Translations under genes and position numbers: made by a program
Shown: positions 11,248-57,654 of the stretch, one piece after another
How positions within the stretch are numbered: the stretch's first letter is position 1
Layout of the letters: every line of letters starts with the position of its first letter
The notes under the pieces: model-generated
What the model saw: the letters and a program-made list of their open reading frames with translations, nothing else
What the model was told of the DNA's origin: nothing
Database searches by the model: none
Assembly (NCBI GenBank): GCA_965277775.1
Contig: OZ255843.1
Span: 455,451-519,450 of the forward strand
From: Gammaproteobacteria bacterium
Lineage (GTDB): Bacteria; Pseudomonadota; Gammaproteobacteria; CAKMZV01
Length of the DNA: 64,000 nucleotides
Direction: 5' to 3'

Positions 11248-11291
11248 AGCAATTGATCCTTGGTTATCCTTTAGGTGATTATCATAACAGG

Positions 11292-40655: not shown

Positions 40656-40884
40656 GCCCGTTTAACTCACGCTAAGTGCGTTGATTTTGCCGAGTATCAT
40701 CGACATAAAACGAAAGGCATCAAACAGCCATCATTCAGTAAAATAGCGAGATCAGTATTGACACCTTTATAAGTGGCTATTTTAACATTAAATTAATGCT
40801 AAAACCGTTACAATATCCCTCTGATACAAAGCGATCTCTGATCGCCTGTTTATAAATCACTCATCATTTTTGCCGTTTCAACTT

Positions 40885-41553
40885 ATGGATCAAGACGCAC
40901 TCAAAAAAAATGTCGCTCAAGCCGCTTTAGAATACGTTGAAAACGACAGTGTTGTCGGTATTGGCACAGGCTCTACCACCAATTATTTCATTGATGCCTT
41001 AGCAGCTTCTAAACGCTACGTTAAAGGCGCGGTATCGAGCAGTGTGGCCAGTGAAAATCGCTTAAAGCGGCATCATATCCCCGTCTTTCAAATGAATGAA
41101 GTAGCGCCAATCGACCTATACGTCGATGGCTGTGATGAGTCTGACTCAGATCTCAATTTGATCAAGGGCGGGGGTGGCGCATTGACGCGCGAAAAAATTG
41201 TGTGCGCCAATGCCACAAGATTTGTTTGTATTGCCGATGAGTCAAAATACGTTGAACAACTGGGGGAATTTCCACTGCCCATAGAAGTCATCCCTATGGC
41301 AAGAAGTTATGTGGCCAAGGAAATCATCAAACGCTTTGGTGGTGAGCCCGTTTGGCGCGAGGACTTTGTCACCGATAATGGCAACCACATATTAGACGTT
41401 CACCTGCTGTCCATTGACCAGCCCAAAGCATTAGAAAGCGCCCTCAATGAAATTGTCGGCGTGGTGTGCAATGGCCTATTTGCCCAAAGAGGCGCGGACG
41501 TATTGCTCATCAGCAGTGCCACGGGCATTCAGACATTCACCGCCAAACATTAA
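40885..41553 (+). CDS. rpiA: ribose-5-phosphate isomerase A
   Basis: [13 protein letters not shown]-like motifs; ORF opens at 40870. Confidence 0.88.
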
Positions 41554-41564
41554 GAGCTCAAGCC

Positions 41565-42059
41565 ATGAAAAAAAACCTGACTGTCCTCTTAATCTTACTT
41601 GTTAGTGTTGCTGGAATAACCTGGTTTTTCAGTCAAAATGGCCAATCGGCGCCCGCCATAACACTCACCGATATTGATGGCAAAACCCACACCACCATCA
41701 ACAATCAAGCGCCCACATTGATCACATTCTGGGCCACCAGTTGCGTCACTTGCGTTGCCGAAATGCCAGATTTAAAAGCTTTGTATGATCAATGGCAATC
41801 CACCGGTTTTAATCTGCTCGCCATTGCCATGTCTCACGATTCATCTAGCGCCATTCAAACATTTCGCAATCAAAATGCCCTGCGCTTTCCAGTGTTTTAT
41901 GACCGTAGCGACGTCGCCGCAAAAGCATTTGATGAAGTTCGTCTAACGCCCACCCATTTTTTAGTCAGCAAAACTGGGCGAATCCTGTATCACGGCATTG
42001 GTTTGTCTGATTTTGCCCACTTACATGAATTGATCCAACAAGACATAGAATCCTCTTGA
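41565..42059 (+). CDS. TlpA/ResA-family periplasmic thiol-disulfide oxidoreductase
   Basis: signal/TM anchor MKKNLTVLLILLV then WATSCVTCVAEMP CxxC; ORF opens at 41466, overlapping rpiA. Confidence 0.75.
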   Translation: MKKNLTVLLILLVSVAGITWFFSQNGQSAPAITLTDIDGKTHTTINNQAPTLITFWATSCVTCVAEMPDLKALYDQWQSTGFNLLAIAMSHDSSSAIQTFRNQNALRFPVFYDRSDVAAKAFDEVRLTPTHFLVSKTGRILYHGIGLSDFAHLHELIQQDIESS

Positions 42060-42065
42060 CACACC

Positions 42066-42797
42066 ATGTCCTCAGAAGTCATTATATGTATTGGTGGCAT
42101 TGACCCAACGGGTGGCGCTGGACTTTCTGCTGATATAGTCACCATTCACGCATTAGGCGGGCACGCCTGCCCTATTGTCAGCGTGCAGACGCAACAAACC
42201 TCGGTCAATGTTCAAGCCGTTGTCGCACAAGACCCAGCATTTTTTAAAACCCAACTATGCTCCTTACAAAACTTACCGATCAAAGCCATCAAAATAGGAT
42301 TGATTGCGGCAGAACATGTCCCAATCATCAAAACCTTCTTAGAAAACCTAAAAGTGCCTGTGGTACTTGACCCTATTTTAACGGCTGGGGGCGGTTACAA
42401 ATTTCACCACAACGGCGCCATCCTACAGCCGCTGATGAAGCATTGTCATTTGACCCCAAATCGCGTTGAATTAGAACAACTGACCCACAAGGGCATAGAC
42501 GGCGAGTGTGCCCGCCAACAATTAGGTTGTCAATCGCTCATCGTCACGGATAAGGCCCATCAAGCACAAAATGCGGTCAGCATTTATCAACCATCGGGCG
42601 TCAAGCACTTGCCTTATGACAAGACACTTGGTGATTATCATGGAACAGGCTGCACATTCAGCAGCGCTTTGACCATCAGCCTGGCACAAAACGGCGATCT
42701 CATTGCAAGCTGTCAACGGGCCTTAGACCATACTCAAAAAGCCATACACAATGCTTACACACTTGGGCAAGGGCAAAGCATTCCAAAGCGCGCTTAA
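42066..42797 (+). CDS. thiD: hydroxymethylpyrimidine/phosphomethylpyrimidine kinase
   Basis: GGIDPTGGAGLSADI N-terminus, ribokinase-like fold motifs. Confidence 0.85.
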   Translation: MSSEVIICIGGIDPTGGAGLSADIVTIHALGGHACPIVSVQTQQTSVNVQAVVAQDPAFFKTQLCSLQNLPIKAIKIGLIAAEHVPIIKTFLENLKVPVVLDPILTAGGGYKFHHNGAILQPLMKHCHLTPNRVELEQLTHKGIDGECARQQLGCQSLIVTDKAHQAQNAVSIYQPSGVKHLPYDKTLGDYHGTGCTFSSALTISLAQNGDLIASCQRALDHTQKAIHNAYTLGQGQSIPKRA

Positions 42798-43161
42798 AAA
42801 GCCACTATACTCAGGCGACACTCAATCGGTCTTAAGTTGATATGGGCTTCAGTTGCAAACAAAACAGCGATATTAGTCGTAGAAAATGCCGTTAAAAATA
42901 ACCGCCAACTTTCTTTAATAAATAACACAATAAAATTGTCATTCCCACCAATAAATTACATATTTAATGTTACAATTACCCTCATTGAATGGATATGTAA
43001 AAAGGCATGTGGTCATTAAAAATCCTTGTTTTATTTTTACCGATCTGTGTGTAAGAAAATCTATTAAAAAGTGTTTCAATCATGCCCTTGGATGAATCAA
43101 AATTTTGTACAACAGTCTATAAAACACACCCATTAAAATCAACCGTATGAGGAGAATATTG

Positions 43162-44310
43162 ATGCGCTATTGGTTAACCAACATTTTAGGACTTTGTTTA
43201 CTCGCCATCTCTGGATTTGCTCACGCCATCAACACCTCAAACGGCTACAATTTGCCGATTGGCGTAACTTCTGTCAGTCGTGAGATTTATGATCTCCACA
43301 TGATCATTTTTTACATCTGCGTCGCAATCGGGGTTCTTGTCTTTGGTGCAATGGCCTACTCGATCATCAATCACAGAAAATCATTGGGTGTCAAACCCGC
43401 TCAGTTCCACGAAAGCACGACTATTGAATTAATTTGGACCATTATTCCGCTGGCCATCTTGGTGGTGGTTGCCATTCCTGCGACCAGCGTGCTGATTGAT
43501 TTAGAAGACAGCTCAAAATCTGATATGTCCATCAAAGTCACAGGCTATCAATGGAAATGGAAGTATGATTATCTTGATGGCGATGCTCAAGGCATCAGCT
43601 TCTTTTCAAATTTAGATGATCGCTCACGCAAAGAATTAGAGCGCTCACAAACCGCCGGTAAATTACCCGTTTACAAAAATTATCTGGTCGATGTTGATAA
43701 TGAACTGGTTGTGCCTATCAATAAAAAAATACGGTTTTTGATCACTTCAAACGATGTTATTCACGCTTGGTGGGTGCCTGATTTTGGCGTCAAACAAGAT
43801 GCCATTCCAGGCTTTATCAACGATACTTGGGCAAAAATTGATCAACCTGGTGTTTACCGAGGTAACTGCGCAGAACTTTGTGGTAAAGACCATGCCTTTA
43901 TGCCAGTGGTTGTTCGCGCCTTAACTGAAGAAGACTATGCCGCTTGGATTTACAACCAAAAGAATGCGGCTAAAATCGCTGCAGAAGCCGCCAACAAAAC
44001 CTTTTCCAAGGAAGAACTCATCAACGAAGGTAAACTGGTTTATGCAAGAGCCTGTGCCGCATGTCACCAAGCAGGTGGTCAAGGCGTACCAGGCGTATTC
44101 CCCGCCATTACTGCCAGCCCCCTTGCATTAGGTCCCATTGATCAGCATCTCGACATTATTTTAAATGGTAAAAGTGGAACGGCCATGCAGGCGTTTCGAG
44201 ATCAGTTAACCGATGTCGAACTCGCAGCTGTCGTTTCTTTTCAAAGAAATGGTTTAGGCAACAACGTTGGGGATTTCATGCAACCGAACCAAGTCAAAGC
44301 CAAGCGTTAA
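43162..44310 (+). CDS. coxB: cytochrome c oxidase subunit II with C-terminal cytochrome c domain
   Basis: CuA site HAWWVPDFGVK / CAELCG..H, C-terminal CAACHQ haem-c site; ORF opens at 43147. Confidence 0.9.
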   Translation: MRYWLTNILGLCLLAISGFAHAINTSNGYNLPIGVTSVSREIYDLHMIIFYICVAIGVLVFGAMAYSIINHRKSLGVKPAQFHESTTIELIWTIIPLAILVVVAIPATSVLIDLEDSSKSDMSIKVTGYQWKWKYDYLDGDAQGISFFSNLDDRSRKELERSQTAGKLPVYKNYLVDVDNELVVPINKKIRFLITSNDVIHAWWVPDFGVKQDAIPGFINDTWAKIDQPGVYRGNCAELCGKDHAFMPVVVRALTEEDYAAWIYNQKNAAKIAAEAANKTFSKEELINEGKLVYARACAACHQAGGQGVPGVFPAITASPLALGPIDQHLDIILNGKSGTAMQAFRDQLTDVELAAVVSFQRNGLGNNVGDFMQPNQVKAKR

Positions 44311-44337
44311 ATTTCATTTCATCTTAGGAGAGCTAAT

Positions 44338-45954
44338 ATGGCCACTGTAACTGCACCAATTGAACATCATGACCACCATGGTCCAGCAAAAGGCTTGATG
44401 CGTTGGGTAAGAACCACCAACCACAAAGACATTGGCACCTTATACATGTGGTTTTCATTTCTCATGTTATTGGTGGGTGGCGCTATGGCAATGGTCATTC
44501 GCGCAGAACTGTTATACCCAGGTTTACAGGTCGTTGACCCGCAGTTTTTTAATTCTTTAACCACAATGCACGGATTGATCATGGTCTTTGGTGCCATTAT
44601 GCCGGCATTGGTTGGCTTGGCAAATTGGCAAATCCCAATGATGATTGGCGCCCCAGACATGGCATTGCCCCGTTTAAATAACTGGAGCTTTTGGATCCTA
44701 CCTTTTGCGGCCGTATTATTGATTTCGACCTTCTTTATGGAAGGCGGTGCACCAGGCAGTGGTTGGACACTTTATGCACCTTTGTCAACTACCTTTGCGC
44801 CTCAAAGCATGGACTTCCTTATTTTTGCGATCCACTTGCTGGGCTTCTCCTCCATCATGGGCTCGATCAACATTGTTGCCACCATATTAAATCTTCGCGC
44901 ACCCGATATGCGCCTAATGGACATGCCCTTATTTGTTTGGACTTGGTTGATTACGGCATTCTTGCTCATTGCCGTTATGCCTGTACTCGCTGGCGCAGTG
45001 ACCATGATGTTGACCGACAGAAATTTTGGCACCAGCTTCTTTGATGCAGCCGGCGGTGGCGACCCTGTGATGTTCCAACACATCTTTTGGTTTTTTGGTC
45101 ATCCTGAAGTTTATATTATGATTTTGCCTGCATTTGGCATCGTTTCTCAAATCATTCCCACATTTGCTCGTAAACCCCTGTTTGGTTACAGCTCAATGGT
45201 TTACGCCACCGCTTCAATTGCAATTTTGTCGTTCGTGGTCTGGGCGCATCACATGTTTTTGGTCGGTATGCCAATTGAAGGACAACTGTACTTTATGTAT
45301 GCCACCATATTAATTTCTGTCCCCACGGGCGTTAAAGTCTTTAACTGGGTTGCAACCATGTGGAAAGGCGCCCTGACCTTTGAATCTCCCATGTTATGGG
45401 CACTGTCTTTTGTGGTTCTATTCACCATTGGTGGTTTTTCTGGTCTCATGCTGGGTGTGGTTCCTGCTGATATTCAATATCACGATACTTATTTCGTTGT
45501 TGCACATTTCCACTACGTATTAGTAACAGGCGCACTGTGGGCAATCATCGCTGGCGTGTACTACTGGATACCAAAATGGACAGGGCGTATGTACAATGAA
45601 AAATTGGCCAAAATCCACTTTTGGTGGTCGATTATTTCCGTCAACGTTTTATTCTTCCCTCAACATTTCTTAGGGTTGGCTGGTATGCCCAGACGCTATG
45701 CGGACTATTCAGTGCAATTTACCGACTTCAATTTTATATCTTCCGTTGGTGCCTTTGCTTTTGGCGCCTCATTCATCCTTTATACCTATATTTTGATCGA
45801 TTGCATCGTTCGAGGTGCAAAAGTTACTGACAACCAAGTCTGGGGTGAATCAGCCAAAACACTGGAATGGCAAGTGCCCTCACCTGCACCCTACCATACT
45901 TATGAAACACCACCCAGTGCCGAACTTATCAAAGCCTCGTCTCAACATGGCTAA
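44338..45954 (+). CDS. ctaD: cytochrome c oxidase subunit I
   Basis: 538 aa, 12 TM, conserved haem/CuB His ligands, WFFGHPEVY. Confidence 0.95.
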   Translation: MATVTAPIEHHDHHGPAKGLMRWVRTTNHKDIGTLYMWFSFLMLLVGGAMAMVIRAELLYPGLQVVDPQFFNSLTTMHGLIMVFGAIMPALVGLANWQIPMMIGAPDMALPRLNNWSFWILPFAAVLLISTFFMEGGAPGSGWTLYAPLSTTFAPQSMDFLIFAIHLLGFSSIMGSINIVATILNLRAPDMRLMDMPLFVWTWLITAFLLIAVMPVLAGAVTMMLTDRNFGTSFFDAAGGGDPVMFQHIFWFFGHPEVYIMILPAFGIVSQIIPTFARKPLFGYSSMVYATASIAILSFVVWAHHMFLVGMPIEGQLYFMYATILISVPTGVKVFNWVATMWKGALTFESPMLWALSFVVLFTIGGFSGLMLGVVPADIQYHDTYFVVAHFHYVLVTGALWAIIAGVYYWIPKWTGRMYNEKLAKIHFWWSIISVNVLFFPQHFLGLAGMPRRYADYSVQFTDFNFISSVGAFAFGASFILYTYILIDCIVRGAKVTDNQVWGESAKTLEWQVPSPAPYHTYETPPSAELIKASSQHG

Positions 45955-46057
45955 AAATTCTAAAAAAGGGATTTGGCTGACTTTTCTTGGGTTGATGCTC
46001 ATTGTGATATTTGTGTTTACATATACCATCATGAGCGGGGTTGTTAAAGGAACCTAA
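45947..46057 (+). CDS. possible small single-TM protein of the oxidase operon
   Basis: 36-aa ORF MAKNSKKGIWLTFLGLMLIVIFVF... overlapping ctaD stop; not verified. Confidence 0.3.
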   Translation: MAKNSKKGIWLTFLGLMLIVIFVFTYTIMSGVVKGT

Positions 46058-46059
46058 TT

Positions 46060-46641
46060 ATGCATAAAGCTCAGAAATGGTTTTACATCAAGTTGGTCAG
46101 CATTCCTGTGCTGATGTTCGGTTTTGCCTTTGCCCTCATTCCGCTTTATACAGTCCTTTGCGACATCACTGGTCTCAATGGCAGATCCTCAAATTTATCT
46201 GAAGTAGCACAACAATCTGAATTTAAGATTTCTGAAAATCGTCAAGTCAATGTCCATTTTTTAGCAAATGTCGCATCTGGCATGCCCATTGTCTTCTATC
46301 CAAAAGAAAGCAACATAGAATTGAAACCAGGCGAAATCACAACGGTTTATTACATTGCTGAAAACCGTTCTGATAAAACCATTTTTGGACAAGCCATTCC
46401 CAGTGTTGCACCAGAAGGCGCAGCCGCCCATCTTAAAAAATTAGAATGCTTTTGCTTCAATAAGCAAATATTTGCGCCCAATGATCGCGTTGAAATGCCC
46501 GTCCAAATTGTTGTTGATTCAGATTTAGATCAATCCATTGTAGAATTGACCCTCTCATACACCTTCTATCGTTTAGAAGATGAAACCCTCGACCAACCCA
46601 TCAACAAAAGCGTGATTAAAACCCACGGCTTGAACAGTTAG
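46060..46641 (+). CDS. ctaG: cytochrome c oxidase assembly protein CtaG/Cox11
   Basis: N-terminal TM, CFCF copper-binding motif. Confidence 0.85.
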   Translation: MHKAQKWFYIKLVSIPVLMFGFAFALIPLYTVLCDITGLNGRSSNLSEVAQQSEFKISENRQVNVHFLANVASGMPIVFYPKESNIELKPGEITTVYYIAENRSDKTIFGQAIPSVAPEGAAAHLKKLECFCFNKQIFAPNDRVEMPVQIVVDSDLDQSIVELTLSYTFYRLEDETLDQPINKSVIKTHGLNS

Positions 46642-46655
46642 AATCAGGAGATAAC

Positions 46656-47531
46656 ATGGCACATTCCTCAAATTCATATTACATCCCGCATGGTACTTCA
46701 TGGCCGATTATTGGCTCAATTGGCTTATTCATTATGTTATCGGGTTTTGCCAGCATGCTTCACGATTCACCGCTTGGTGGTACCATGTTAGCCGTTGGTT
46801 TGGCCATACTGCTCATCATGCTTTTTGGGTGGTTCTCTGAAGTCGTCAGCGAAAGTGAAAAAGGCATGTACAACGCCCAAGTTGACTTATCATTCCGTTG
46901 GGCAATGGGGTGGTTCATTTTCTCTGAAGTCATGTTCTTTGCCGCATTTTTTGGGGCTTTATTTTATGCCCGTGTGCTTTCAATCCCATGGTTAGACGGC
47001 GCAGGCACTGGCGCCATGACGAACGCACTACTCTGGCCTGATTTTAGTGCCACTTGGCCGCTGTTAGAATCGCCTGACACAACAAAATATCCCGCACCCT
47101 CTGGCATTGTTGCACCATTTGAAATTCCCTTATTGAACACCATCCTCTTATTGACATCGGGTGTGACCATCACTTGGGCACATCATGCCCTAAAAGCGGG
47201 TAATAGACAGCATCTACTCATCGGCATGTTGTTGACCGTCACATTGGGTATCGCCTTCCTATATTTTCAAGTCATAGAATATCAACACGCCTATGAACAA
47301 TACAGCCTTCGCTTAGACTCCGGTATTTATGGTAGCACCTTCTTCATGCTCACTGGATTTCACGGATTTCACGTGACCTTAGGAACCATCATGTTGATTG
47401 TGATCACCATGCGTTGCGCCAGAGGACACTTCAATAAAGAAAAACATTTTGCCTTTGAAGCCGTCGCTTGGTACTGGCACTTTGTTGACGTCGTATGGTT
47501 AGGATTGTTTATATTTGTTTACTGGCTGTAA
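46656..47531 (+). CDS. coxC: cytochrome c oxidase subunit III
   Basis: 291 aa, 7 TM, COX3 family sequence. Confidence 0.9.
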   Translation: MAHSSNSYYIPHGTSWPIIGSIGLFIMLSGFASMLHDSPLGGTMLAVGLAILLIMLFGWFSEVVSESEKGMYNAQVDLSFRWAMGWFIFSEVMFFAAFFGALFYARVLSIPWLDGAGTGAMTNALLWPDFSATWPLLESPDTTKYPAPSGIVAPFEIPLLNTILLLTSGVTITWAHHALKAGNRQHLLIGMLLTVTLGIAFLYFQVIEYQHAYEQYSLRLDSGIYGSTFFMLTGFHGFHVTLGTIMLIVITMRCARGHFNKEKHFAFEAVAWYWHFVDVVWLGLFIFVYWL

Positions 47532-47584
47532 AACCTCAAAGCTATCTAAGATACCTTAAACAAATCCACGCTACAGATCAAAAA

Positions 47585-47610
47585 GCCACACATTGTTGTG
47601 GCTTTTTTGT
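47585..47610. terminator. rho-independent terminator (bidirectional) after coxC
   Basis: GCCACA-cattgtt-GTGGC stem-loop followed by TTTTTT; A-run on the other side. Confidence 0.7.
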
Positions 47611-47827
47611 GTGCCTTCATTCTGCCCCGATCAATCAGCATTGATCTGCACCTTTAGACTATAGCAAGCCCCCTGCCCTGCAGACCGCCTTAGAACCGCT
47701 CAACGCAAAGAGCAAAACATAGGACATTTCAGCATAAATGCTTGTAAAATATTCATGCAATTGCCACTGGCTGTTATGCTCAAACACCATGCATGGATCA
47801 CATAATAAAGAATAAATAGGAATAACA

Positions 47828-50800
47828 ATGTCAAAATCAAAAATGAATTTTTCCTTTGATGTAGGAATGGCCTCTCTTGGCGTGGCCGTTAATAGAGGCA
47901 ACAAAATCATCCACGCAGACGCCCTCTTAATTCACTTAGAAGCGGGCTCCATAAAAGATGCCGCAACCAAACGACGACAGTATCGTACCAGACAAGCACA
48001 CAAACAACGCGAACAAGTCTTAGAAGACTTTTGGAGAAGCATTGGTAAAGAACCACTGCAACGCAAAAAATTCGAGAAAACAACAAAAGGATTTAAAAAA
48101 ACACCCGCAGATCGACGCTTAGAACAAGAATTTCCCTACGCAGGCGATAACACCGCCTACGCCTCGTCATTGTTGAGAATCATGTTGCTTGAAGGCCACC
48201 CGCTTGAGGATTGGCAAATATACAAAGCACTGAGTGCGGCCATTCAACGTAAAGGCTATGACCACAACGTGCCTTGGAAAACAAAAGACGACGACACAGA
48301 TGTCAGCGACAAAGATTTAGATTTACGCGAAGCCTTTAGTGCATACATTCGTGATATGCCTGAACAATATCAATTACCTTGTTATTTTGATGCAGCAAGA
48401 ATGGGATTGTGGTGCGAAAAAACCAAAAAAATTATTTCTGTCAAACAAGGCTCAAAGAAACCCGAACGCGCCAGAGGCTATAAGGCCGATCGAAAACTGG
48501 TTGATAAAGAATTAAGATTACTCTTGGAAGCGGCGGCCAAGCGCATACCTGAAATGCGCCTTAGCACAGAAGCCATGAATCAACTCATCTATGGCAAAGC
48601 AGAGATCAAACCAACTTCTGACAAAAGATACCCCTCCTATTCGAAGATCACTGGGTTGTTGGGGCAAAAATACCCACGCTTTGAAAATCGTATCGTCAGT
48701 AAATGTGCTTTGATTCCCCGACTGAACGTCTGTAAATCTTCAAATAAGCGGGCCATTGAAGTTGGTTTTTTAATGAAGTTGTTGAATTTACGTTATGAAT
48801 TGTATGATGAATTCACAGGTGATAAACAAGAAAAAAGTCTGAACCATGAACAAATAAAGCAAATATTCCAAGAGCTTAAAACTCAGAAAACAAAAGATTT
48901 TGAACCCGAGTCCTATGCCCAAAGGCTCAAACTGACTAATACCCAACTCAAGAAAAGAATCCAAGCGTTCAGCGGAGAGACTGCTCGGATTAAAAGCGGG
49001 CACGAAACGATAGAAAAGATCAGTATAACAGGCCGAAGTCGTTTTAGCCAGCCGGCGCTATACTTACTCAAACATATGATTTTACAAGGTCTCATACCGC
49101 GAGACTTTCATGCAGACTGTATGAAGCGCATTGAAAATTGTACAGACTCAAATAAGTTTGGGCACAAAATATTTAAAAATGCAACTTATCGTTTTTTTAA
49201 AGAAGATTTTGAATGCCTGAAGCTAATGGATGACAAAATTTACACGCCATCCATGCCCGCCAAACACTCTGACGATGTTAACCAACAAGTCGTCAACATC
49301 ATAAGCTCGTGCAATTGGCCTGAATTACGCCATAGATTAAACGTATTTGATACTGAGTTGCAAAACCTCGTTGAACAATTTGGTCAACCAGAAAGCGTTA
49401 ATTTTGAATTTATTCGTGAAGATTTTCTAAGTCTGGAAAAGAAAACGCAGTATGAAAGCCAAAGCCAACAAGGCAGAGACGAACGAGAGGCGGCAAGAAT
49501 TTCTTTAGCAGAAGCCAACATTAAGACAAACGAGCAAAACATCTTACGCTATCGATTACTGATTGAACAGAAAGGGCAATGTCCCTACACTGGAGAGGCA
49601 TTGAGCATTGCCGCCTTAGAGCATTATGATATTGATCATGTATTTCCAACATCCCAAGGTGGCCCCGATGCCTACTACAACAAGGTATTAACAAGTCACG
49701 TCGTTAATCAGAAACAAAAAGCCGATAAATTACCTTGCGAATTCATAGAGAACTGGAATAGTTACACACAACGTATAGATACAATCTATAAAGATCCTAA
49801 GAATTCCAAGAGACATTTAAGAAAACAAAAACTCTTGAGTGCCACAAGCCGAGATGAAGCAGAGGAATTAATTGAAAAATACACGGGTCTATCAGGCACC
49901 TCGTACATTGCTCGATTGGCCAGAGACATAGTATGCGCACGCTTTGGCTGGATTCCTGGGGCGAAGGATGAAACACAGAAAGTGTTTATTTTCGGTGGTG
50001 GGCTGACCAGTAAAATTGCCAAAGACAATAGTCTTTATAAAGCTCTCTCCGAAGATAACGACCCGTGGAATAAACCACGCCATGATCATCGTCACCATGC
50101 ACTTGATGCTATGGTCATTAGCTATTTAAAAGAATGGGCGCGCGATGAAACGAAGGCTGATTTTTTTACCTTTCCAAAGGGCATTGATAGACACTATTTC
50201 AAAACCAAGCTCGATGAAGTATATCCTCATTACGTCAGCAGAAGGAAACCTGCCTTGAGCGAACAGCCAAAAAAAGGTAAAGACGTCAACCGCACGGAAT
50301 TTCGTAATATCAGCAAAGACCCTGAAGCCAAAGGGCAATGGCATACCAGTAAAACGGTTACTGGTGAGGGAACCTTTCAACACGGTCATTTGATCTACTT
50401 GGATCGAAAGGACAAGGTTCGGCGTACAGCAATTCACAGTTTCCGCTCTCGTTTTCAAGAAGAAAAAATAATACAGCGCGATGAAAATAATCGCATTATT
50501 GGCTTTATCCGCTCGAGTCACTCATTGCACATAAAAGAAAACCTTTTCAAGGCTGTATTATTCGGGGGAAGTATAGAGAAACTTCCTAAGGGAGAATATT
50601 CGATTGAGAAAATACAAAAAAAATGCATCATCGAACACAGTAAAAAAGGCGAGCGCTATAGGATTGATAAAGCCAAGCTTGAAAAACAGTGTATCAGAAA
50701 TAAATTATTGGCAGGGCAAGTTTTTGTATTGCAAGGCTTTCGCCTTGACAAAGCTACAGAAATATCGGGACAATTTCGATATTCTAATGACCACGATTGC

Positions 50801-51109
50801 TTCATAAATGAAGAAACTGATGAACAAGTCATTATAAAATTTGATCGCTTGGTTACTCACCTCCATAAAAATAATTGGCTCACCAGCGATGAGTTATCAA
50901 ATACCAAAATCGTTGAAATAAATACAGCTATTTCAGGTCATAAAGATGATAAGACAGTGAATAACCTACCCGCAGGTTATTATTTAATAAAGCAGTTCCA
51001 AGGCAATTATGTACACCTCAGATCTCAGCAGGGATTAGTCTATAAGTTGACGGTAAACATTTTAAATCCAATATTTAAAGATGAGCCACCATCTACTCCA
51101 TCTTCTTAG
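47828..51109 (+). CDS. cas9: CRISPR-associated endonuclease Cas9, type II-C-like (1093 aa)
   Basis: RuvC-I FSFDVGMASLGVAV; Arg-rich bridge helix KRRQYRTRQAHKQR; RuvC-II NFEFIRE; HNH HYDIDHVFPTSQGG...NKVLT...N; RuvC-III HDHRHHALDAMV; followed by cas1-cas2 and array. Confidence 0.9.
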   Translation: MSKSKMNFSFDVGMASLGVAVNRGNKIIHADALLIHLEAGSIKDAATKRRQYRTRQAHKQREQVLEDFWRSIGKEPLQRKKFEKTTKGFKKTPADRRLEQEFPYAGDNTAYASSLLRIMLLEGHPLEDWQIYKALSAAIQRKGYDHNVPWKTKDDDTDVSDKDLDLREAFSAYIRDMPEQYQLPCYFDAARMGLWCEKTKKIISVKQGSKKPERARGYKADRKLVDKELRLLLEAAAKRIPEMRLSTEAMNQLIYGKAEIKPTSDKRYPSYSKITGLLGQKYPRFENRIVSKCALIPRLNVCKSSNKRAIEVGFLMKLLNLRYELYDEFTGDKQEKSLNHEQIKQIFQELKTQKTKDFEPESYAQRLKLTNTQLKKRIQAFSGETARIKSGHETIEKISITGRSRFSQPALYLLKHMILQGLIPRDFHADCMKRIENCTDSNKFGHKIFKNATYRFFKEDFECLKLMDDKIYTPSMPAKHSDDVNQQVVNIISSCNWPELRHRLNVFDTELQNLVEQFGQPESVNFEFIREDFLSLEKKTQYESQSQQGRDEREAARISLAEANIKTNEQNILRYRLLIEQKGQCPYTGEALSIAALEHYDIDHVFPTSQGGPDAYYNKVLTSHVVNQKQKADKLPCEFIENWNSYTQRIDTIYKDPKNSKRHLRKQKLLSATSRDEAEELIEKYTGLSGTSYIARLARDIVCARFGWIPGAKDETQKVFIFGGGLTSKIAKDNSLYKALSEDNDPWNKPRHDHRHHALDAMVISYLKEWARDETKADFFTFPKGIDRHYFKTKLDEVYPHYVSRRKPALSEQPKKGKDVNRTEFRNISKDPEAKGQWHTSKTVTGEGTFQHGHLIYLDRKDKVRRTAIHSFRSRFQEEKIIQRDENNRIIGFIRSSHSLHIKENLFKAVLFGGSIEKLPKGEYSIEKIQKKCIIEHSKKGERYRIDKAKLEKQCIRNKLLAGQVFVLQGFRLDKATEISGQFRYSNDHDCFINEETDEQVIIKFDRLVTHLHKNNWLTSDELSNTKIVEINTAISGHKDDKTVNNLPAGYYLIKQFQGNYVHLRSQQGLVYKLTVNILNPIFKDEPPSTPSS

Positions 51110-51965
51110 CCCCAACATTTTCATTAATAAACAAAATGGGCTATTAAATTATGTGCGGGGAGATGAGCGCAGACAGTTGCCCCTTGAAGACATTCGTGGT
51201 GTCATCATTGCCACCAAAGGGGTCACACTAACCGATGCCATAATATCGGCATTGCTTGAAAATGGTGCATTTATACTGCACTGCAATGCCCAGTACCAAC
51301 CCATTGGATTGACCGAACCCACAGCCAAAATAGTGCGTCGTAAAGTGGCACAGTGTCAAGCCAAAGCGACTCAAAAGCTTTGTAAAGCGCTCTGGCAACG
51401 AATATTGCGCCAAAAAATCCAAAATCAAAGAAAAACGCTGAAATTCATTGGATGTTCCACCGATTATTTGGATAAGCAGTTAAATCAAAATAACTTGAAT
51501 GAATCGATCTGTGCTCGTCAATATTGGCGAGCCATGTTTATTGATTTGGGCTATGTTGGTTTAACGCGTCGTCACGACAATGAACATGATATTAATAAAA
51601 TGCTCAATTATGCTTATGCCGTCTTAGGTGCCATTTGTCATCGATCTATTGTCGCCCATGGTATGAGCCCATTGTTTGGCGTACACCACACCGCCAATTT
51701 TCACAATCATCCGTTGGTTTACGATTTAATCGAGCCATTTCGCCCCTTCATCGACAAACAATTGTGGTTATTTATAAAAAATGGGGATTCCAGTGTCGAT
51801 CTAAAAAATTGGTTGAATTTTTCCAAAAATTGTTGGCAAATGACCATTCATCACAATCAACGTCGTTTGCAATTAATTGATGCTGTGGATGTGGTTGTAC
51901 AAAAAATGGCCCAAGCTTTTCAAACTAAAGATGCTCAAGCGTTATGGCTTCCAGAAGTTCCATAA
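51081..51965 (+). CDS. cas1: CRISPR-associated endonuclease Cas1 (type II)
   Basis: RRQLPLEDIRGVIIATKGVTLTDAIISALLENGAFILHCNAQYQPIG closely resembles type II-C Cas1; overlaps cas9 3' end. Confidence 0.9.
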   Translation: MSHHLLHLLSPNIFINKQNGLLNYVRGDERRQLPLEDIRGVIIATKGVTLTDAIISALLENGAFILHCNAQYQPIGLTEPTAKIVRRKVAQCQAKATQKLCKALWQRILRQKIQNQRKTLKFIGCSTDYLDKQLNQNNLNESICARQYWRAMFIDLGYVGLTRRHDNEHDINKMLNYAYAVLGAICHRSIVAHGMSPLFGVHHTANFHNHPLVYDLIEPFRPFIDKQLWLFIKNGDSSVDLKNWLNFSKNCWQMTIHHNQRRLQLIDAVDVVVQKMAQAFQTKDAQALWLPEVP

Positions 51966-51967
51966 AA

Positions 51968-52291
51968 ATGGGCAGAATACTGGTACTGTTTGACCTACCG
52001 GTTAATACAGCGAAAGAGCGTAAAATTGCGTCAAAATTCCGAAAGGACATGCTTAACGATGGCTACATCATGCTCCAGTTCTCAGTCTATATGAGAACTT
52101 TTGTCTCGTGGGAGCGCATGAAAAAGCACGCCAAACGCCTCGCCCTTATGGCCCCCAATGGAGGCAACATAAGGATTTTTTTCATTACCGAAAAACAATG
52201 GCTTAAGTCCATAAGCATTGACGACATGGCGTATAAGCAAAAAAAGCAAATACGAACCCCACATCAATTGGATCTATTTACCATCTGGTAA
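51968..52291 (+). CDS. cas2: CRISPR-associated endoribonuclease Cas2
   Basis: MGRILVLFDLP...GYIMLQFSVYMR; ATG 51968 is 2 nt after cas1 stop; frame is open from 51944. Confidence 0.85.
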   Translation: MGRILVLFDLPVNTAKERKIASKFRKDMLNDGYIMLQFSVYMRTFVSWERMKKHAKRLALMAPNGGNIRIFFITEKQWLKSISIDDMAYKQKKQIRTPHQLDLFTIW

Positions 52292-52412
52292 CGAAGAGCA
52301 GTGCTTAGTAAGTTGTCGAATTAGTTAAGATCCCCATCTGCATATAGCTACGATCAACTTATTAGGGTGCTCAGAATTTGTTTAAATTATATATCCTATT
52401 AATTTTTTATGT
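52292..52412. promoter_or_regulatory. AT-rich cas2-array junction (possible leader)
   Basis: 121 bp AT-rich non-coding segment directly abutting first repeat. Confidence 0.35.
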
Positions 52413-55400
52413 ATTATACTCTGCTGGAAAAACGGGGGGGATCAAAACGGAAAACATTGCTACAAATGCAATTTCCGCATTATACTCTGCTGGAAAAACG
52501 GGGGGGATCAAAACATTTGGAATGAGTGGTTTAGAGATCAGAAATTATACTCTGCTGGAAAAACGGGGGGGATCAAAACCTAACTGACACCTTTTGTAAA
52601 ATGGTGGCAATTATACTCTGCTGGAAAAACGGGGGGGATCAAAACCCTACACCCGTGGGAAAAATCGATAAACTGATTATACTCTGCTGGAAAAACGGGG
52701 GGGATCAAAACCAGCGGGAAATGTCCAACACAGCTTTACAAATTATACTCTGCTGGAAAAACGGGGGGGATCAAAACTGCATTTTCGGTTATGATTTTCC
52801 AGACAAAATTATACTCTGCTGGAAAAACGGGGGGGATCAAAACCCGAATACCACCCTTGACCCGTGGCATTACATTATACTCTGCTGGAAAAACGGGGGG
52901 GATCAAAACGAACCACACAAGACAGCGGTTTAATGTGGCATTATACTCTGCTGGAAAAACGGGGGGGATCAAAACGTTTGGGGTGATCGAAAACGATCAC
53001 AATTAATTATACTCTGCTGGAAAAACGGGGGGGATCAAAACTGCTCGCTTAAATGAGCGAAGGTTGGCCAATTATACTCTGCTGGAAAAACGGGGGGGAT
53101 CAAAACAAACTGGTCAAAATATACAGTAAGTATGACATTATACTCTGCTGGAAAAACGGGGGGGATCAAAACCAGCGCGCGATCATGAGGCAGCTGGGCT
53201 CAATTATACTCTGCTGGAAAAACGGGGGGGATCAAAACGTCGTACTTGCTATATATTTTGACAAGTTTATTATACTCTGCTGGAAAAACGGGGGGGATCA
53301 AAACCAGACTGACACCTTTTGTAAAATGGTGGCAATTATACTCTGCTGGAAAAACGGGGGGGATCAAAACTACCGTTTGGTCTGGGATAATTTTGAGAAA
53401 TTATACTCTGCTGGAAAAACGGGGGGGATCAAAACAATTCAGAGAGGCGGTCGCCATGCAGCATTATTATACTCTGCTGGAAAAACGGGGGGGATCAAAA
53501 CTGGCATTACTCTATTAATTTCCCTTCTTTAATTATACTCTGCTGGAAAAACGGGGGGGATCAAAACTGGCCTACTCGGCTCAATGGGCGACGCGGAATT
53601 ATACTCTGCTGGAAAAACGGGGGGGATCAAAACCGAACCGTGCTATCAAACTCACCAGCCTTAATTATACTCTGCTGGAAAAACGGGGGGGATCAAAACC
53701 CGATCGACCAACTTGTTAATGTTGACTTATTATACTCTGCTGGAAAAACGGGGGGGATCAAAACCCAAACACGACCCTTGACCCTTGGCATTATATTATA
53801 CTCTGCTGGAAAAACGGGGGGGATCAAAACAGGTAAGGCCTCTTCAACAAAGACTGGCAATTATACTCTGCTGGAAAAACGGGGGGGATCAAAACAAATC
53901 CTTCGATTTTTCGTGGACAGTCAATATTATACTCTGCTGGAAAAACGGGGGGGATCAAAACTCGGTTCGCGCTTCAGCATATAAGTCAGCGATTATACTC
54001 TGCTGGAAAAACGGGGGGGATCAAAACCAGAGAGCTAATCCCCATTCAAGAAGCGATATTATACTCTGCTGGAAAAACGGGGGGGATCAAAACTACAAAG
54101 GAGAACAAAAGGTTACTCATCCGATTATACTCTGCTGGAAAAACGGGGGGGATCAAAACTAGCTCAGCGATTGGGAAAAGGGCATCATATTATACTCTGC
54201 TGGAAAAACGGGGGGGATCAAAACCTTCGAGTGTGGTTCTTTGGACTGCTTGTTATTATACTCTGCTGGAAAAACGGGGGGGATCAAAACATCAACAGTT
54301 ATTGTAAGTTCCTTTGAAGCATTATACTCTGCTGGAAAAACGGGGGGGATCAAAACCGAACTGTGATCAGCTCTGCCACGTTCAGATTATACTCTGCTGG
54401 AAAAACGGGGGGGATCAAAACTTCGTATGCATTTAATTACATTTCACCTAGATTATACTCTGCTGGAAAAACGGGGGGGATCAAAACATACGTGAATATA
54501 TGCCGATCTTTGAACTCATTATACTCTGCTGGAAAAACGGGGGGGATCAAAACAGATTTCGAGATTTCCTTCGATATTTGCAAATTATACTCTGCTGGAA
54601 AAACGGGGGGGATCAAAACAACCTGCAGACCATTAAAGACGAACCCCGCATTATACTCTGCTGGAAAAACGGGGGGGATCAAAACTTAAAATGGAACTGC
54701 ATATCCATTATGAGTATTATACTCTGCTGGAAAAACGGGGGGGATCAAAACGATAATAGGATTGACATTGATAGCTACTTGATTATACTCTGCTGGAAAA
54801 ACGGGGGGATCAAAACAGATACTGGACTTTTAGTTCCAGTCTTTGTATTATACTCTGCTGGAAAAACGGGGGGGATCAAAACATGGGTCAAACCTAAAAC
54901 CAACTGAACCAATTATACTCTGCTGGAAAAACGGGGGGGATCAAAACACCAGCACGCTGCTGGATTAGCTGGCATTGATTATACTCTGCTGGAAAAACGG
55001 GGGGGATCAAAACTGCGGGTTGATCTGGGTAAATACTTTCAATATTATACTCTGCTGGAAAAACGGGGGGGATCAAAACCCCCAAACCAGCTCCACTGAT
55101 TCCACGACTATTATACTCTGCTGGAAAAACGGGGGGGATCAAAACCCTATGACAAGTCTTGATAAATTTATTGAAATTATACTCTGCTGGAAAAACGGGG
55201 GGGATCAAAACGGACATTTAAAATTTATAATAAAAACGAAGATTATACTCTGCTGGAAAAACGGGGGGGATCAAAACAGATACTGGACTTTTAGTTCCAG
55301 TCTTTGTATTATACTCTGCTGGAAAAACGGGGGGGATCAAAACCGGCGAACCGCCCGATTATGTTAAAGCTTTATTATACTCTGCTGGAAAAACGGGGGG

Positions 55401-57111
55401 GATCAAAACCCCCAAACGAGTTCTACCGATTCGACGACTATTATACTCTGCTGGAAAAACGGGGGGGATCAAAACTATACACCTCCAGCAACAAAAACAA
55501 CCCTTATTATACTCTGCTGGAAAAACGGGGGGGATCAAAACCTTATTGAGCTCGGGATATTCCCAGATCCAATTATACTCTGCTGGAAAAACGGGGGGGA
55601 TCAAAACTGCGGTTTGATCCTTGACACGGCTGGTCACATTATACTCTGCTGGAAAAACGGGGGGGATCAAAACCATTGCTTTTGCGCTGAATTCCATCGG
55701 GCAATTATACTCTGCTGGAAAAACGGGGGGGATCAAAACTGCGGGCAGTATTTGCTATTTGGTGAGCGTATTATACTCTGCTGGAAAAACGGGGGGGATC
55801 AAAACCAGCACGCACACCATAATTGCATTACACACATTATACTCTGCTGGAAAAACGGGGGGGATCAAAACTATCGCTTGGTGTGGGACAATTTCGAGAA
55901 ATTATACTCTGCTGGAAAAACGGGGGGGATCAAAACGTATCTGTATCAGCACTATTTTTTATAAGATTATACTCTGCTGGAAAAACGGGGGGGATCAAAA
56001 CCATTGAGATGAGCGTAGCTGAATGGTCGAGATTATACTCTGCTGGAAAAACGGGGGGGATCAAAACTGATGATGAAGTTGCAAGACGTGCACGCGCATT
56101 ATACTCTGCTGGAAAAACGGGAGGGATCAAAACCGACGATGTCTCGTCGCCCAGGTATAGCGGATTATACTCTGCTGGAAAAACGGGGGGGATCAAAACC
56201 TGGCGATGTGTACCCCACCGATTACATTAATTATACTCTGCTGGAAAAACGGGGGGGATCAAAACTCGTACAATGGGCTTGAATATCCAACAGACATTAT
56301 ACTCTGCTGGAAAAACGGGGGGGATCAAAACGGATTGATCGGTGTCGATAAACGGGCGAAAATTATACTCTGCTGGAAAAACGGGGGGGATCAAAACCGG
56401 CCATACAGAATGAAAAAAACAAAAAGTATTATACTCTGCTGGAAAAACGGGGGGGATTATACTCTGCTGGAAAAACGGGGGGGATCAAAACGTATTACCA
56501 CCTAACGAAGCCCACTTGGATATTATACTCTGCTGGAAAAACGGGGGGGATCAAAACTGAATAAACAGACATAGTAACTCCTAATTAATTATACTCTGCT
56601 GGAAAAACGGGGGGGATCAAAACTAGGAGGTGCAAGAATGATAATGTCGTTGAATTATACTCTGCTGGAAAAACGGGGGGGATCAAAACTAGGAGGTGCA
56701 AGAATGATAATGTCGTTGAATTATACTCTGCTGGAAAAACGGGGGGGATCAAAACCTAATTCTTTGATTATGTATTTCCCTTCTATTATACTCTGCTGGA
56801 AAAACGGGGGGGATCAAAACGATGAAGGCGTTCTGATGAACAGTCACAGAATTATACTCTGCTGGAAAAACGGGGGGGATCAAAACTTATAATTTCTATT
56901 TCGTCGTCAACGTCCATTATACTCTGCTGGAAAAACGGGGGGGATCAAAACGAAACATTGCATTCTGACTTCGTTGGCTTTATTATACTCTGCTGGAAAA
57001 ACGGGGGGGATCAAAACTAAAACCCCGGTCAAAGACTGATCGGGGGGATTATACTCTGCTGGAAAAACGGGGGGGATTATACTCTGCTGGAAAAACGGGG
57101 GGGATCAAAAC
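52413..57111 (-). CRISPR. CRISPR array, ~71 x 36-bp repeat, spacers 29-31 bp; plus-strand repeat ATTATACTCTGCTGGAAAAACGGGGGGGATCAAAAC; canonical type II orientation is minus strand GTTTTGATCCCCCCCGTTTTTCCAGCAGAGTATAAT
   Basis: directly visible 66-bp periodicity over 4.7 kb; first repeat 52413-52448, last full repeat ends 57111; orientation inferred from GTTTTG...AAT form and the TATAAT at the repeat end. Confidence 0.97.
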
Positions 57112-57114
57112 TCC

Positions 57115-57303: not shown

Positions 57304-57364
57304 TGAATAAGGCAGTGCATTTTTTCACGAATTAGTTCACTATGCGGATCATCTTTGTGGTAGC

Positions 57365-57619: not shown

Positions 57620-57654
57620 TACTCAGAATAACCATATTTAACAGGTCCATTATT

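What the first reader, a model, noticed from the sequence alone, without database searches (positions are those of the whole stretch)
47532..47827. No convincing tracrRNA anti-repeat found near the locus
A type II system needs a tracrRNA with roughly 20 nt or more of complementarity to the repeat. I scanned the cas9 upstream region (47532-47827), the cas gene junctions, which have no intergenic space, and the 250 bp after the array (57112-57360) on both strands. I found only weak matches. One is 47658-47676 CCCCCTGCCCTGCAGA, which could pair with repeat GGGGG and UCUGCUGG across a bulge. Another is GTTTTGCTC on the minus strand around 47700-47720. Neither is followed by an obvious nexus, hairpins and terminator. 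Either the tracrRNA is highly bulged or non-canonical, it is encoded elsewhere, or I missed it by eye.
Basis: seen in the sequence. Interest (0 to 1): 0.55.

Follow-up and report, generated by a model that had tools for sequence, protein, structure and literature searches.

The report
Rearranged tracrRNA hidden beside CRISPR array
The Cas9 helper RNA (tracrRNA) that seemed to be missing is encoded in the 121-bp gap between cas2 and the CRISPR array, but its parts are in a circularly permuted order and only about 12 bases match the repeat, so scans by eye or by pairing energy miss it.

Summary
Its two weak matches are not conserved in a 92%-identical sister genome.

It did not scan the cas2-array gap (52292-52412). 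That gap holds a conserved 73-nt element on the minus strand, 52370->52298. A covariance model built only from other genomes finds it as the single hit in the 64 kb (60.6 bits, E 1e-13).

The element has a 12-nt anti-repeat, GGGGAUCUUAAC. It pairs with the first 12 nt of the minus-strand repeat (10 bp plus a conserved UU/UU mismatch) and changes together with the repeat across lineages. The anti-repeat sits inside the loop of a long stem, and all 12 pairs of that stem's main helix show compensatory changes.

More distant relatives carry the same modules in the usual order: anti-repeat, CUUAACUGA, armA, CAC-UGC, triloop, GCA-C, armB, U-run. Here the order is GCA-C, armB, linker, anti-repeat, armA, CAC-UGC, a circular permutation opened at the hairpin's apical loop.

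Every examined locus with the permuted form has a Cas9 with this protein's C-terminal domain. Every examined locus without that domain has the usual order.

No expression data exist, so the RNA ends and its function are inferred.

The parts
47532..47827 (.). It holds no tracrRNA, only a hairpin plus T-run (about 47580-47608) after COX3 and a promoter-like site for cas9 (47721-47750).
   Evidence: Sequence. Promoter scan; that scan did not call the hairpin a terminator, which I read by eye. Only 84% identical to L001 and not conserved in other loci. No hit from either RNA model.
47669..47684 (-).
   Evidence: Duplex energy -25.6 kcal/mol, 0.45% quantile. Replaced by CACCGTGGCCTACAGA in L001, which has the same repeat.
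47828..51109 (+). cas9, 1093 aa.
   Evidence: Pfam HNH_4 and RuvC_III. NCBIfam NF049971 'Cas9d' 636.9 bits (cut-off 375) and TIGR01865. Foldseek hits to St1, Sa, Nme1 and Geo Cas9 at 12-16% identity.
51081..51965 (+). cas1.
   Evidence: Pfam Cas_Cas1; TIGR03639 cas1_NMENI.
51944..52291 (+). cas2.
   Evidence: Pfam CRISPR_Cas2; TIGR01573.
52298..52370 (-). Conserved core of the circularly permuted tracrRNA: 5'-GCACC-armB-linker-anti-repeat-UAAU-armA-GCACUGC-3'.
   Evidence: Model R1, built without this sequence, scores 60.6 bits, E 1e-13, and is the only significant hit in the window. Covariation. 93% identical to L001.
52366..52370 (-). 5' motif GCACC. GCA pairs with the 3'-terminal UGC; the next C is the one-base side of the conserved internal loop.
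   Evidence: Invariant in 17 of 17 aligned elements. Corresponds to the GCAC on the 3' side of the apical loop in canonical relatives.
52351..52365 (-). armB, CUAAUAAGUUGAUCG: the 5' strand of the long-range stem.
   Evidence: Pairs with armA in the R1 alignment. Compensatory changes across lineages.
52336..52350 (-). Linker joining armB to the anti-repeat. It can add only weak pairing with the repeat (GCA and UAUA).
   Evidence: Variable in length and sequence across loci. Duplex predictions.
52324..52335 (-). Anti-repeat core GGGGAUCUUAAC. It pairs with repeat nt 1-12, GUUUUGAUCCCC, as 10 bp plus a UU/UU internal loop.
   Evidence: One of only two matches outside the array within 2 mismatches, against about 7 expected by chance. 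It changes together with the repeat: GATC, GATTC, GATTGC, GATTAC, GATTTC.
52304..52318 (-). armA, CGACAACUUACUAAG: the 3' strand of the long-range stem.
52298..52303 (-). 3' motif CACUGC: the CAC side of the internal loop plus UGC, which pairs with the 5' GCA.
   Evidence: Invariant. Equals the CACUGC on the 5' side of the apical loop in canonical relatives.
52386..52391 (-). -10-like TATAAT, 15 nt upstream of GCACC; candidate tracrRNA promoter, predicted start near 52379.
   Evidence: Sequence. In 10 sponge-clade loci a TATATT, TATAAT or TATGAT box lies 6-8 nt upstream of GCACC. The simple sigma-70 scan finds no full -35/-10 promoter.
52413..57111 (-). CRISPR array: 71 full 36-nt repeats, 29-30-nt spacers. 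crRNA sense is the minus strand: GUUUUGAUCCCCCCCGUUUUUCCAGCAGAGUAUAAU. Each repeat ends in a -10-like TATAAT.
   Evidence: TAnAnT is conserved at the repeat's 3' end in all relatives. Degenerate repeats sit at the cas-distal end in relatives, as described for type II-C (PMC12080349).
52413..52418 (-). TATAAT at the 3' end of the cas2-proximal repeat. It has no spacer downstream and points at the tracrRNA element 42 nt away; a possible second tracrRNA promoter.
   Evidence: Sequence. In L201, L205 and L206 it is the only -10-like box upstream of the element. This is inference.

Best explanation
The locus has a II-C-style layout: cas9-cas1-cas2 followed by the array.

crRNAs are read from the minus strand, probably from the -10-like box that ends every repeat. 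That step is inferred by analogy with Neisseria and Campylobacter.

The tracrRNA is encoded on the same strand, immediately downstream of the cas2-proximal repeat, at 52370->52298. Its 12-nt anti-repeat GGGGAUCUUAAC pairs with the spacer-proximal 12 nt of the repeat, giving 10 bp around a U.U/U.U internal loop. That loop is conserved throughout this Cas9 family.

In ordinary tracrRNAs the anti-repeat is followed by the scaffold hairpin. Here it lies in the roughly 45-nt loop of that hairpin. The strand that normally forms the 3' half (GCA-C-armB) now precedes the anti-repeat. The strand that normally forms the 5' half (armA-CAC-UGC) follows it.

The RNA ends therefore lie where relatives have a variable apical triloop, and a linker joins armB to the anti-repeat. 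The folded modules are the same as in relatives: the repeat/anti-repeat helix, the CUUAACU junction, a long stem, and the CAC/C internal loop closed by GCA/UGC. I therefore infer that Cas9 binds it in the same way.

Shown here: conservation, covariation, co-variation with the repeat, and module-by-module correspondence to canonical relatives. Inferred: transcription, the exact RNA ends, and Cas9 binding and activity.
For: 1. The element is conserved between cas2 and the first repeat in 22 loci in all: the window, L001-L011, L077, L200-L206 and L210.
2. Model R1 was built without the window and L001. It gives a single hit in the window, 52298-52370 on the minus strand, 60.6 bits, E 1e-13.
3. 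For the long-range stem, 92.7% of cells are paired, against 28-51% when partners are slid. All 12 pairs of the main helix show compensatory changes, and 0 of 500 shuffles reach the observed covariation score.
4. The anti-repeat core changes together with the repeat in five sequence states. Some lineages extend the pairing by 7-10 bp (L011, L077, L202, L203).
5. 30 related loci were found by pattern and more by model R2. All have promoter, anti-repeat of about 21 nt, CUUAACUGA, armA, CAC-UGC-nnn-GCA-C, armB and a U-run on the minus strand right after the array. 98% of cells are paired. This fixes the strand and identifies the modules.
6. Permuted sequences rejoined in silico into the canonical order match the canonical HMM over nearly its full length (E 7e-7 to 2e-2). 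Sequences in native order match only the first half. None of 300 shuffles match.
7. R2 finds no canonical tracrRNA in the window.
8. The permuted form tracks the Cas9 C-terminal domain (residues 813-1093). Three further loci fitted that pattern: L210 has the domain and is permuted, while L211 and L212 lack it and are canonical.
9. A -10-like box lies at a fixed 6-8 nt from GCACC in the sponge clade. U-runs follow GCACUGC in L005, L011, L201, L204, L205 and L077.
Against: - There are no RNA-seq or biochemical data, so transcription, the RNA ends and function are unproven.
- In this window the stem is the weakest of the family: -10.4 kcal/mol for the 73-nt core, with two A.C mismatches that would be G.U on the plus strand.
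- G.U versus A.C counts favour the minus strand only mildly across the family, about 13 to 8 by my tally of the pair types.
- There is no clear terminator after GCACUGC here, and no full sigma-70 promoter.
- The core duplex (-18.4 kcal/mol) is no better than 11% of random windows, and a 12-mer within 2 mismatches is expected about 7 times by chance. The case rests on comparative evidence.
- In the rejoining test I added a CTA loop and a T-run, which inflates the scores somewhat.
- The rest of the roughly 2-Mb genome was not searched for another tracrRNA.
Confidence: 0.75

Rival explanations
1. The element is not a tracrRNA. It is a structured leader element at the spacer-integration end of the array, for example a terminator or insulator that stops array read-through into cas2, or a DNA or RNA signal for Cas1-Cas2. 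The true tracrRNA would lie outside the 64-kb window.
For: It sits in the leader-like gap next to the repeat where new spacers are expected to enter. Several loci have a U-run after the stem. Leader structures that involve repeat-like sequence are known in type II systems (PMC12080349). Only 64 kb of the genome could be searched.
Against: Every module matches the canonical tracrRNA of relatives, which have their own promoter, a long anti-repeat and a terminator. The anti-repeat keeps the family-specific UU/UU mismatch and changes together with the repeat. No canonical tracrRNA is found in any of the permuted loci searched, with flanks of up to 10 kb. A hairpin with a 45-nt loop is a poor terminator.
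Confidence: 0.1
2. The RNA is made from the plus strand, and its GUUAAGAUCCCC pairs with the 3' end of plus-strand repeat transcripts.
For: In this window and in L001, two stem mismatches are A.C on the minus strand but would be G.U on the plus strand. An AT-rich box also exists on the plus strand.
Against: Canonical homologues are clearly on the minus strand, with the U-run after the hairpin and the promoter before the anti-repeat. Plus-strand pairing would place the duplex at the end of the repeat farthest from the spacer it follows, opposite to every known Cas9 guide. The -10-like box at the repeat end is conserved only in the minus orientation. Elsewhere in the family, G.U pairs favour the minus strand.
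Confidence: 0.04
3. The reader's weak matches upstream of cas9 (47669-47684 and 47710-47718, minus strand) belong to a diverged tracrRNA that ends at the bidirectional hairpin plus T-run at 47580-47608.
For: The duplex is -25.6 kcal/mol, in the 0.45% quantile. On the minus strand it is followed by a small hairpin and then the COX3 hairpin plus T-run.
Against: It pairs only with the G/C run and the middle of the repeat, not with the spacer-proximal GUUUUGAU. 5 of 16 positions differ in L001 even though the repeat is identical, and GAGCAAAAC is lost there. The region is 84% identical to L001, against 93% for the real element. Nothing comparable lies upstream of cas9 in other loci. Neither RNA model hits it.
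Confidence: 0.02
4. The element is a decaying remnant, and this Cas9 either works without a tracrRNA or the system is inactive.
For: This window has the weakest stem and the shortest anti-repeat of the family. The sister genome L001 has a decayed array and a shorter Cas9.
Against: The array has 71 near-identical repeats. Its spacers include variants of the same protospacers and a 29/29 match to microvirus capsid genes, which indicates recent activity. cas9, cas1 and cas2 are intact. The element scores 60.6 bits against the family model. No tracrRNA-independent Cas9 is known to me.
Confidence: 0.05

Closest known systems
Canonical tracrRNA of the related Cas9 loci found here (Verrucomicrobiota, Lentisphaerota and Spirochaetota MAGs, e.g. 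L013, L022, L037, L053; also L207, L211, L212)
   Same: Same strand and position, just downstream of the array's cas2-proximal repeat. Same anti-repeat 3' end (..UCUUAAC) with the same UU/UU mismatch against GUUUUGA. Same CUUAACU(G/A)A junction, a 14-16-bp covarying stem, and the CAC/C internal loop closed by UGC/GCA.
   Different: The order of modules differs. The canonical form is anti-repeat, armA, CAC-UGC, triloop, GCA-C, armB, U-run. The window has GCA-C, armB, linker, anti-repeat, armA, CAC-UGC. The anti-repeat is cut from about 21-30 nt to a 12-nt core. The hairpin no longer doubles as an obvious terminator. Each covariance model fails to detect the other form.
Type II-C systems of Neisseria meningitidis and Campylobacter jejuni (PMC3737331; Dugar et al. 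as cited in PMC12080349)
   Same: A cas9-cas1-cas2 operon. The array is read opposite to the cas genes. 36-nt repeats end in a -10-like box, so each repeat can act as a promoter. New spacers enter at the repeat that is last in the direction of transcription. Short pairing suggests crRNA use does not need RNase III; that point is inference.
   Different: Those tracrRNAs have long anti-repeats followed by a nexus and terminal hairpins in linear order. The Cas9 here is only 12-16% identical to solved II-C Cas9s.
Type II-D Cas9d guide RNAs (NsCas9d, PMC12339737; MG34 and MG102, PMC9755519)
   Same: The protein passes NCBIfam's Cas9d model. NsCas9d tolerates removal of 10 bp from its repeat/anti-repeat helix, so a helix of about 10 bp can be enough for a Cas9.
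   Different: Published Cas9d proteins are about 600-1050 aa and mostly lack cas1 and cas2. Their tracrRNA is about 117 nt, with a 19-bp anti-repeat followed by J1, P2, J2, P3 and a pseudoknot. The paper's supplementary files do not contain CACUGC, and their one CUUAACU match is in an unrelated HEARO RNA. No solved Cas9d is among the sequence hits.
Natural circularly permuted RNA genes, such as two-piece tmRNA and permuted tRNA genes (from my own knowledge; not checked here)
   Same: The same folded modules are encoded in rotated order, with the ends moved into a former loop.
   Different: Those are different RNA classes. I found no report of a permuted tracrRNA.
Rfam tracrRNA and other Rfam families
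   Same: None detected.
   Different: A permissive Rfam 15 scan of 44000-60000 gives no hit on 52298-52370.

Membership tests
Type II CRISPR-Cas, II-C-like gene content | A Cas9 with RuvC and HNH nuclease domains. | tested here: met
   Pfam HNH_4 and RuvC_III; TIGR01865 194.5 bits; Foldseek hits to Cas9 structures.
Type II CRISPR-Cas, II-C-like gene content | An operon of cas9, cas1 and cas2 only (no csn2 or cas4), next to an array. | tested here: met
   ORFs and domains; array of 71 repeats.
Type II CRISPR-Cas, II-C-like gene content | Repeat-embedded promoters, with the array read opposite to the cas genes. | tested here: inconclusive
   A TAnAnT box at the minus-sense 3' end of the repeat is conserved in all relatives. 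Degenerate repeats lie at the cas-distal end. No transcript data.
Cas9d (NCBIfam NF049971; type II-D as published) | Score above the model's curated cut-off. | tested here: met
   636.9 bits against a cut-off of 375, covering residues 8-813 only.
Cas9d (NCBIfam NF049971; type II-D as published) | A compact protein and a guide RNA with the published Cas9d scaffold (P1, J1, P2, J2, P3, pseudoknot). | tested here: not met
   The protein is 1093 aa and sits with cas1 and cas2. The RNA modules differ. No solved Cas9d is among the sequence hits.
tracrRNA | An anti-repeat complementary to the spacer-proximal part of the repeat. | tested here: met
   A 12-nt core (10 bp plus a UU/UU loop) at 52324-52335 that changes together with the repeat. 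It is much shorter than the usual 18-nt-plus.
tracrRNA | Encoded within or next to the cas9 locus. | tested here: met
   It lies between cas2 and the array, which is one of the four typical positions (PMC3737331).
tracrRNA | The anti-repeat is followed, in linear order, by scaffold hairpins and a terminator. | tested here: not met
   Half of the scaffold hairpin lies upstream of the anti-repeat. There is no terminator call. The canonical model R2 does not hit the window.
tracrRNA | Homology to a recognisable tracrRNA of related Cas9 systems. | tested here: met
   Module correspondence and the in-silico rejoining test.
tracrRNA | Expressed, bound by Cas9, and required for crRNA function. | not testable with these tools
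   No transcriptome or biochemistry is available.

The most novel reading that the evidence does not exclude
A whole clade of Cas9 systems uses a naturally circularly permuted tracrRNA. The clade includes sponge-associated Gammaproteobacteria, a Spirochaetia MAG and Ca. Zeuxoniibacter; 22 loci were examined here. In these RNAs the 5' and 3' ends lie at the former apical loop of the scaffold hairpin, and the anti-repeat, cut to about 12 nt, is presented inside the hairpin loop. The rearrangement arose once, together with replacement of the Cas9 C-terminal domain of about 280 aa. This would make the system an obligate dual-RNA Cas9 whose crRNA/tracrRNA helix is too short for RNase III.
Probability: 0.6. 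Interest if true: 0.78.

Novelty: new variant of a known kind. Interest (0 to 1): 0.65.

Why it matters
tracrRNAs are found, and single-guide RNAs designed, on the assumption that a long anti-repeat is followed in linear order by hairpins and a terminator. This Cas9 clade breaks that rule, so standard finders and eye scans report no tracrRNA.

If the RNA is made as inferred, three things follow:
- The Cas9 scaffold tolerates moving the RNA ends into the hairpin apex, which suggests new attachment points for guide engineering.
- About 10 bp of repeat/anti-repeat pairing suffices in nature.
- RNA topology and the Cas9 C-terminal domain can change together.

It also supplies covariance models that recover tracrRNAs for a group of Cas9 proteins from uncultivated symbionts.

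For the original finding the practical answer is simple. The locus is complete, and the apparent gap came from not scanning the cas2-array spacer.

Tried and rejected
- **Energy and alignment scans.** RNAduplex and G-U-aware local alignment of the repeat against the window and against four loci gave no standout. The true site ranks only at the 11% quantile. Pairing energy alone cannot find this tracrRNA.
- **Rfam.** A permissive scan of 44000-60000 gave only chance hits.
- **Metagenome pattern scan.** GCAGTGC N12-24 TAGTTAAGAT returned only chance matches, plus an unrelated repeat that looks eukaryotic.
- **G.U versus A.C counts to fix the strand.** The result was ambiguous. The strand was settled by homology to canonical relatives.
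- **RNAcofold of crRNA with tracrRNA.** It cannot represent a helix formed inside a hairpin loop, so it was uninformative.
- **PAM and orientation from protospacers.** One exact and one partial microvirus match showed no shared flanking motif.
- **AlphaFold model of Cas9.** Mean pLDDT was 66 and pTM 0.34. It confirms a Cas9 fold and a confident beta-rich C-terminal domain and nothing more.
- **Small hairpin AGAU-GGGG-AUCU.** It would sequester the anti-repeat. It is present in the window, the sponge clade and L077 but absent in L011 and L201-L205, so I do not treat it as a conserved feature.
- **Literature.** Searches for a permuted tracrRNA or for the motif sequences found nothing relevant.

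Full report
**Locus.** COX3 (46656-47531) is followed by a 296-bp intergenic region. Then come cas9 (47828-51109, 1093 aa), cas1 (51081-51965) and cas2 (51944-52291), which overlap one another. A 121-bp gap follows, and then an array of 71 full 36-nt repeats (52413-57111) with 29-30-nt spacers. Read on the minus strand, the repeat is GUUUUGAUCCCCCCCGUUUUUCCAGCAGAGUAUAAU. It begins like a typical Cas9 repeat and ends in a perfect -10 hexamer.

**Checking the observation.** I scanned the whole window, both strands and both repeat orientations, by duplex energy and by a G-U-aware local alignment.
- No long anti-repeat lies upstream of cas9 or after the array.
The second is at 47710-47718.
- The best duplex there is -25.6 kcal/mol. 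That is the 0.45% quantile, unremarkable given the number of windows tested. It does not involve the spacer-proximal end of the repeat.
- L001 is a sister genome that aligns at 92% identity from 40001 to 52448 and has the same repeat. Both motifs are mutated away there.
- cas9 upstream regions of other relatives are unrelated.

These matches are therefore chance. The region holds only a hairpin plus T-run after COX3 (read by eye; the scan did not call it) and a promoter-like site.

**Finding the element.** Cas9 homologues were used to fetch 79 genomic loci and 11 more contigs. Relatives at 35-89% identity have the same layout and similar repeats.

All of these relatives whose contigs reach that far carry a conserved element between the cas2 stop and the first repeat. 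It contains GTTAAGAT(x)CCCC on the plus strand, which on the minus strand reads as an anti-repeat, GGGG(x)AUCUUAAC. This pairs with repeat positions 1-12/13 around a UU/UU mismatch.

The variable position changes together with the repeat:

| Repeat state | Loci |
|---|---|
| GATC | window, L201-L203 |
| GATTC | sponge clade |
| GATTGC | L011, L204 |
| GATTAC | L077 |
| GATTTC | L205 |

Some lineages extend the pairing by 7-10 bp. The window and the sponge clade barely do.

**Structure.** The anti-repeat is enclosed by a long-range stem flanked by invariant GCACC (5') and GCACUGC (3').
- On 17 sequences, 92.7% of cells pair, against 28-51% for slid controls.
- All 12 pairs of the main helix show compensatory changes.
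- No shuffle out of 500 reaches the observed covariation score.
- A covariance model built without the window and L001 finds exactly one significant hit in the 64 kb: 52298-52370, minus strand, 60.6 bits, E 1e-13.
- The same model finds the held-out loci L001, L004, L200, L206 and L210.

**What it corresponds to.** More distant relatives (30-40% identity) carry an unmistakable tracrRNA on the minus strand just after the array. It has a sigma-70-like promoter, an anti-repeat of about 21-30 nt ending in UCUUAAC, then UGA, then a 14-bp covarying hairpin whose apex reads CAC-UGC-nnn-GCA-C, and then a U-run. In that hairpin 98% of cells are paired and 12 pairs are compensatory. This fixes the strand and identifies the modules.

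The two orders are:
- **Canonical:** anti-repeat, armA, CAC-UGC, triloop, GCA-C, armB, U-run.
- **Window:** GCA-C, armB, linker, anti-repeat, armA, CAC-UGC.

The window element is thus a circular permutation opened at the variable triloop.
- L207 and L211 have the canonical order with a 12-nt cap loop.
- L202, L203 and L210 are permuted, with an extra outer helix beyond the GCAC/CACUGC motif.
- Rejoining the permuted sequences in silico makes them match a canonical HMM over nearly its full length (E 7e-7 to 2e-2). Sequences in native order match only half, and none of 300 shuffles match. The loop and T-run I added inflate these scores somewhat.
- The canonical model R2 recovers held-out canonical loci but finds nothing in the window. 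In permuted loci it gives only marginal partial hits.

**Link to the protein.** Residues 813-1093 of this Cas9 have BLASTP homologues only in proteins P0001-P0055.
- Every examined locus from that set is permuted.
- Every examined locus whose Cas9 lacks this domain is canonical.
- Three loci fetched afterwards fitted the pattern: L210 is permuted, while L211 and L212 are canonical.
- The domain is a confidently modelled beta-rich region in an otherwise poor AlphaFold model.

**Transcription signals.** In the sponge clade a TATATT, TATAAT or TATGAT box lies 6-8 nt upstream of GCACC. Here a TATAAT (52391->52386) lies 15 nt upstream. The -10-like box of the terminal repeat also points at the element.

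U-runs follow GCACUGC in several loci, but here the sequence is only weakly U-rich (UCUUCGUU). The simple scans call neither a promoter nor a terminator. The RNA ends are therefore inferred.

**Classification.** Gene content and array design are II-C-like: the array is read opposite to the cas genes, a promoter-like box sits in each repeat, and spacers enter at the last repeat (PMC3737331; PMC12080349).

The protein passes NCBIfam's Cas9d model. It is larger than published Cas9d proteins, sits with cas1 and cas2, and its RNA does not resemble the published Cas9d scaffold. It is only 12-16% identical to solved Cas9s.

I found no report of a permuted tracrRNA.

**Verdict.** The tracrRNA is not missing. 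It really is non-canonical: a 12-nt anti-repeat inside a permuted scaffold. That explains why eye and energy scans fail; a 12-mer within 2 mismatches is expected about 7 times by chance. Function and RNA ends remain to be shown experimentally.

Noticed in passing
window 52515-52543; phage records MH572494.1 454-482 (L208) and PQ006352.1 466-494 (L209): The second spacer matches the major capsid gene of two Microviridae genomes 29/29. One genome comes from Ciona intestine and the other from rodent faeces. The spacer at 53371-53399 matches the same gene 23/29. No shared flanking motif (PAM) could be derived.
   Followed up: partly
window 54817-54846 = 55278-55307; 56624-56653 = 56690-56719; near-duplicates 52580/53305, 52844/53765, 53371/55872, 55080/55410: Two spacers occur twice. 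Four pairs differ at 2-5 positions, as if taken from variants of the same protospacer. This suggests repeated acquisition from related phages.
   Followed up: partly
window 56428-56491 and 57048-57111: At two places a 28-nt truncated repeat, lacking ATCAAAAC, is fused directly to a full repeat with no spacer between them. This looks like a deletion across the GGGGGGGAT microhomology.
   Followed up: no
window 54782-54816 and 56098-56133: Two variant repeats: one has six G instead of seven (35 nt), and one has a G-to-A change within the G run.
   Followed up: no
L001 14587-15020 (OZ255827.1): The closest relative (92% DNA identity across the locus) has a decayed array of degenerate repeats, and its Cas9 cluster representative is only 998 aa. 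The tracrRNA element is nevertheless 93% identical.
   Followed up: partly
L202 about 11206-11323, L203 about 11192-11300, L210 about 9832-9950: In these loci an extra outer helix of 11-20 bp flanks the GCACC/GCACUGC motif. The motif then becomes an internal loop, and the RNA ends must lie further out.
   Followed up: partly
L212 4756-4846 (minus strand), upstream of cas9 at 5001: In this relative the canonical tracrRNA lies upstream of cas9 rather than next to cas2. Only a lone repeat-like sequence follows cas2.
   Followed up: no
L002 about 14578-14621, L004 and L006, between the cas2 stop and the element: Long low-complexity tracts, (GA)n plus a G run or (GGAGA)n, of variable length lie just downstream of the tracrRNA's 3' motif in some sponge-clade genomes.
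   Followed up: no
L094, L103, L114, L116, L129, L134, L149, L157, L182, L197, L198: The metagenome pattern scan picked up a recurrent unrelated element of about 150 bp (..CCAGCAGTGCAAAAATTTTGAAAATTAGTTAAGATTTGACAAAGTTACAG..GGTGGGAACTTTTTTGAGACACAGTGTAG). It has no CRISPR context and is probably a eukaryotic interspersed repeat.
   Followed up: partly
window Cas9 residues 813-1093 (50264-51106): The C-terminal domain is beta-rich and confidently modelled. It has homologues only in Cas9s whose loci carry the permuted tracrRNA. Relatives with the canonical tracrRNA have an unrelated C-terminus.
   Followed up: partly
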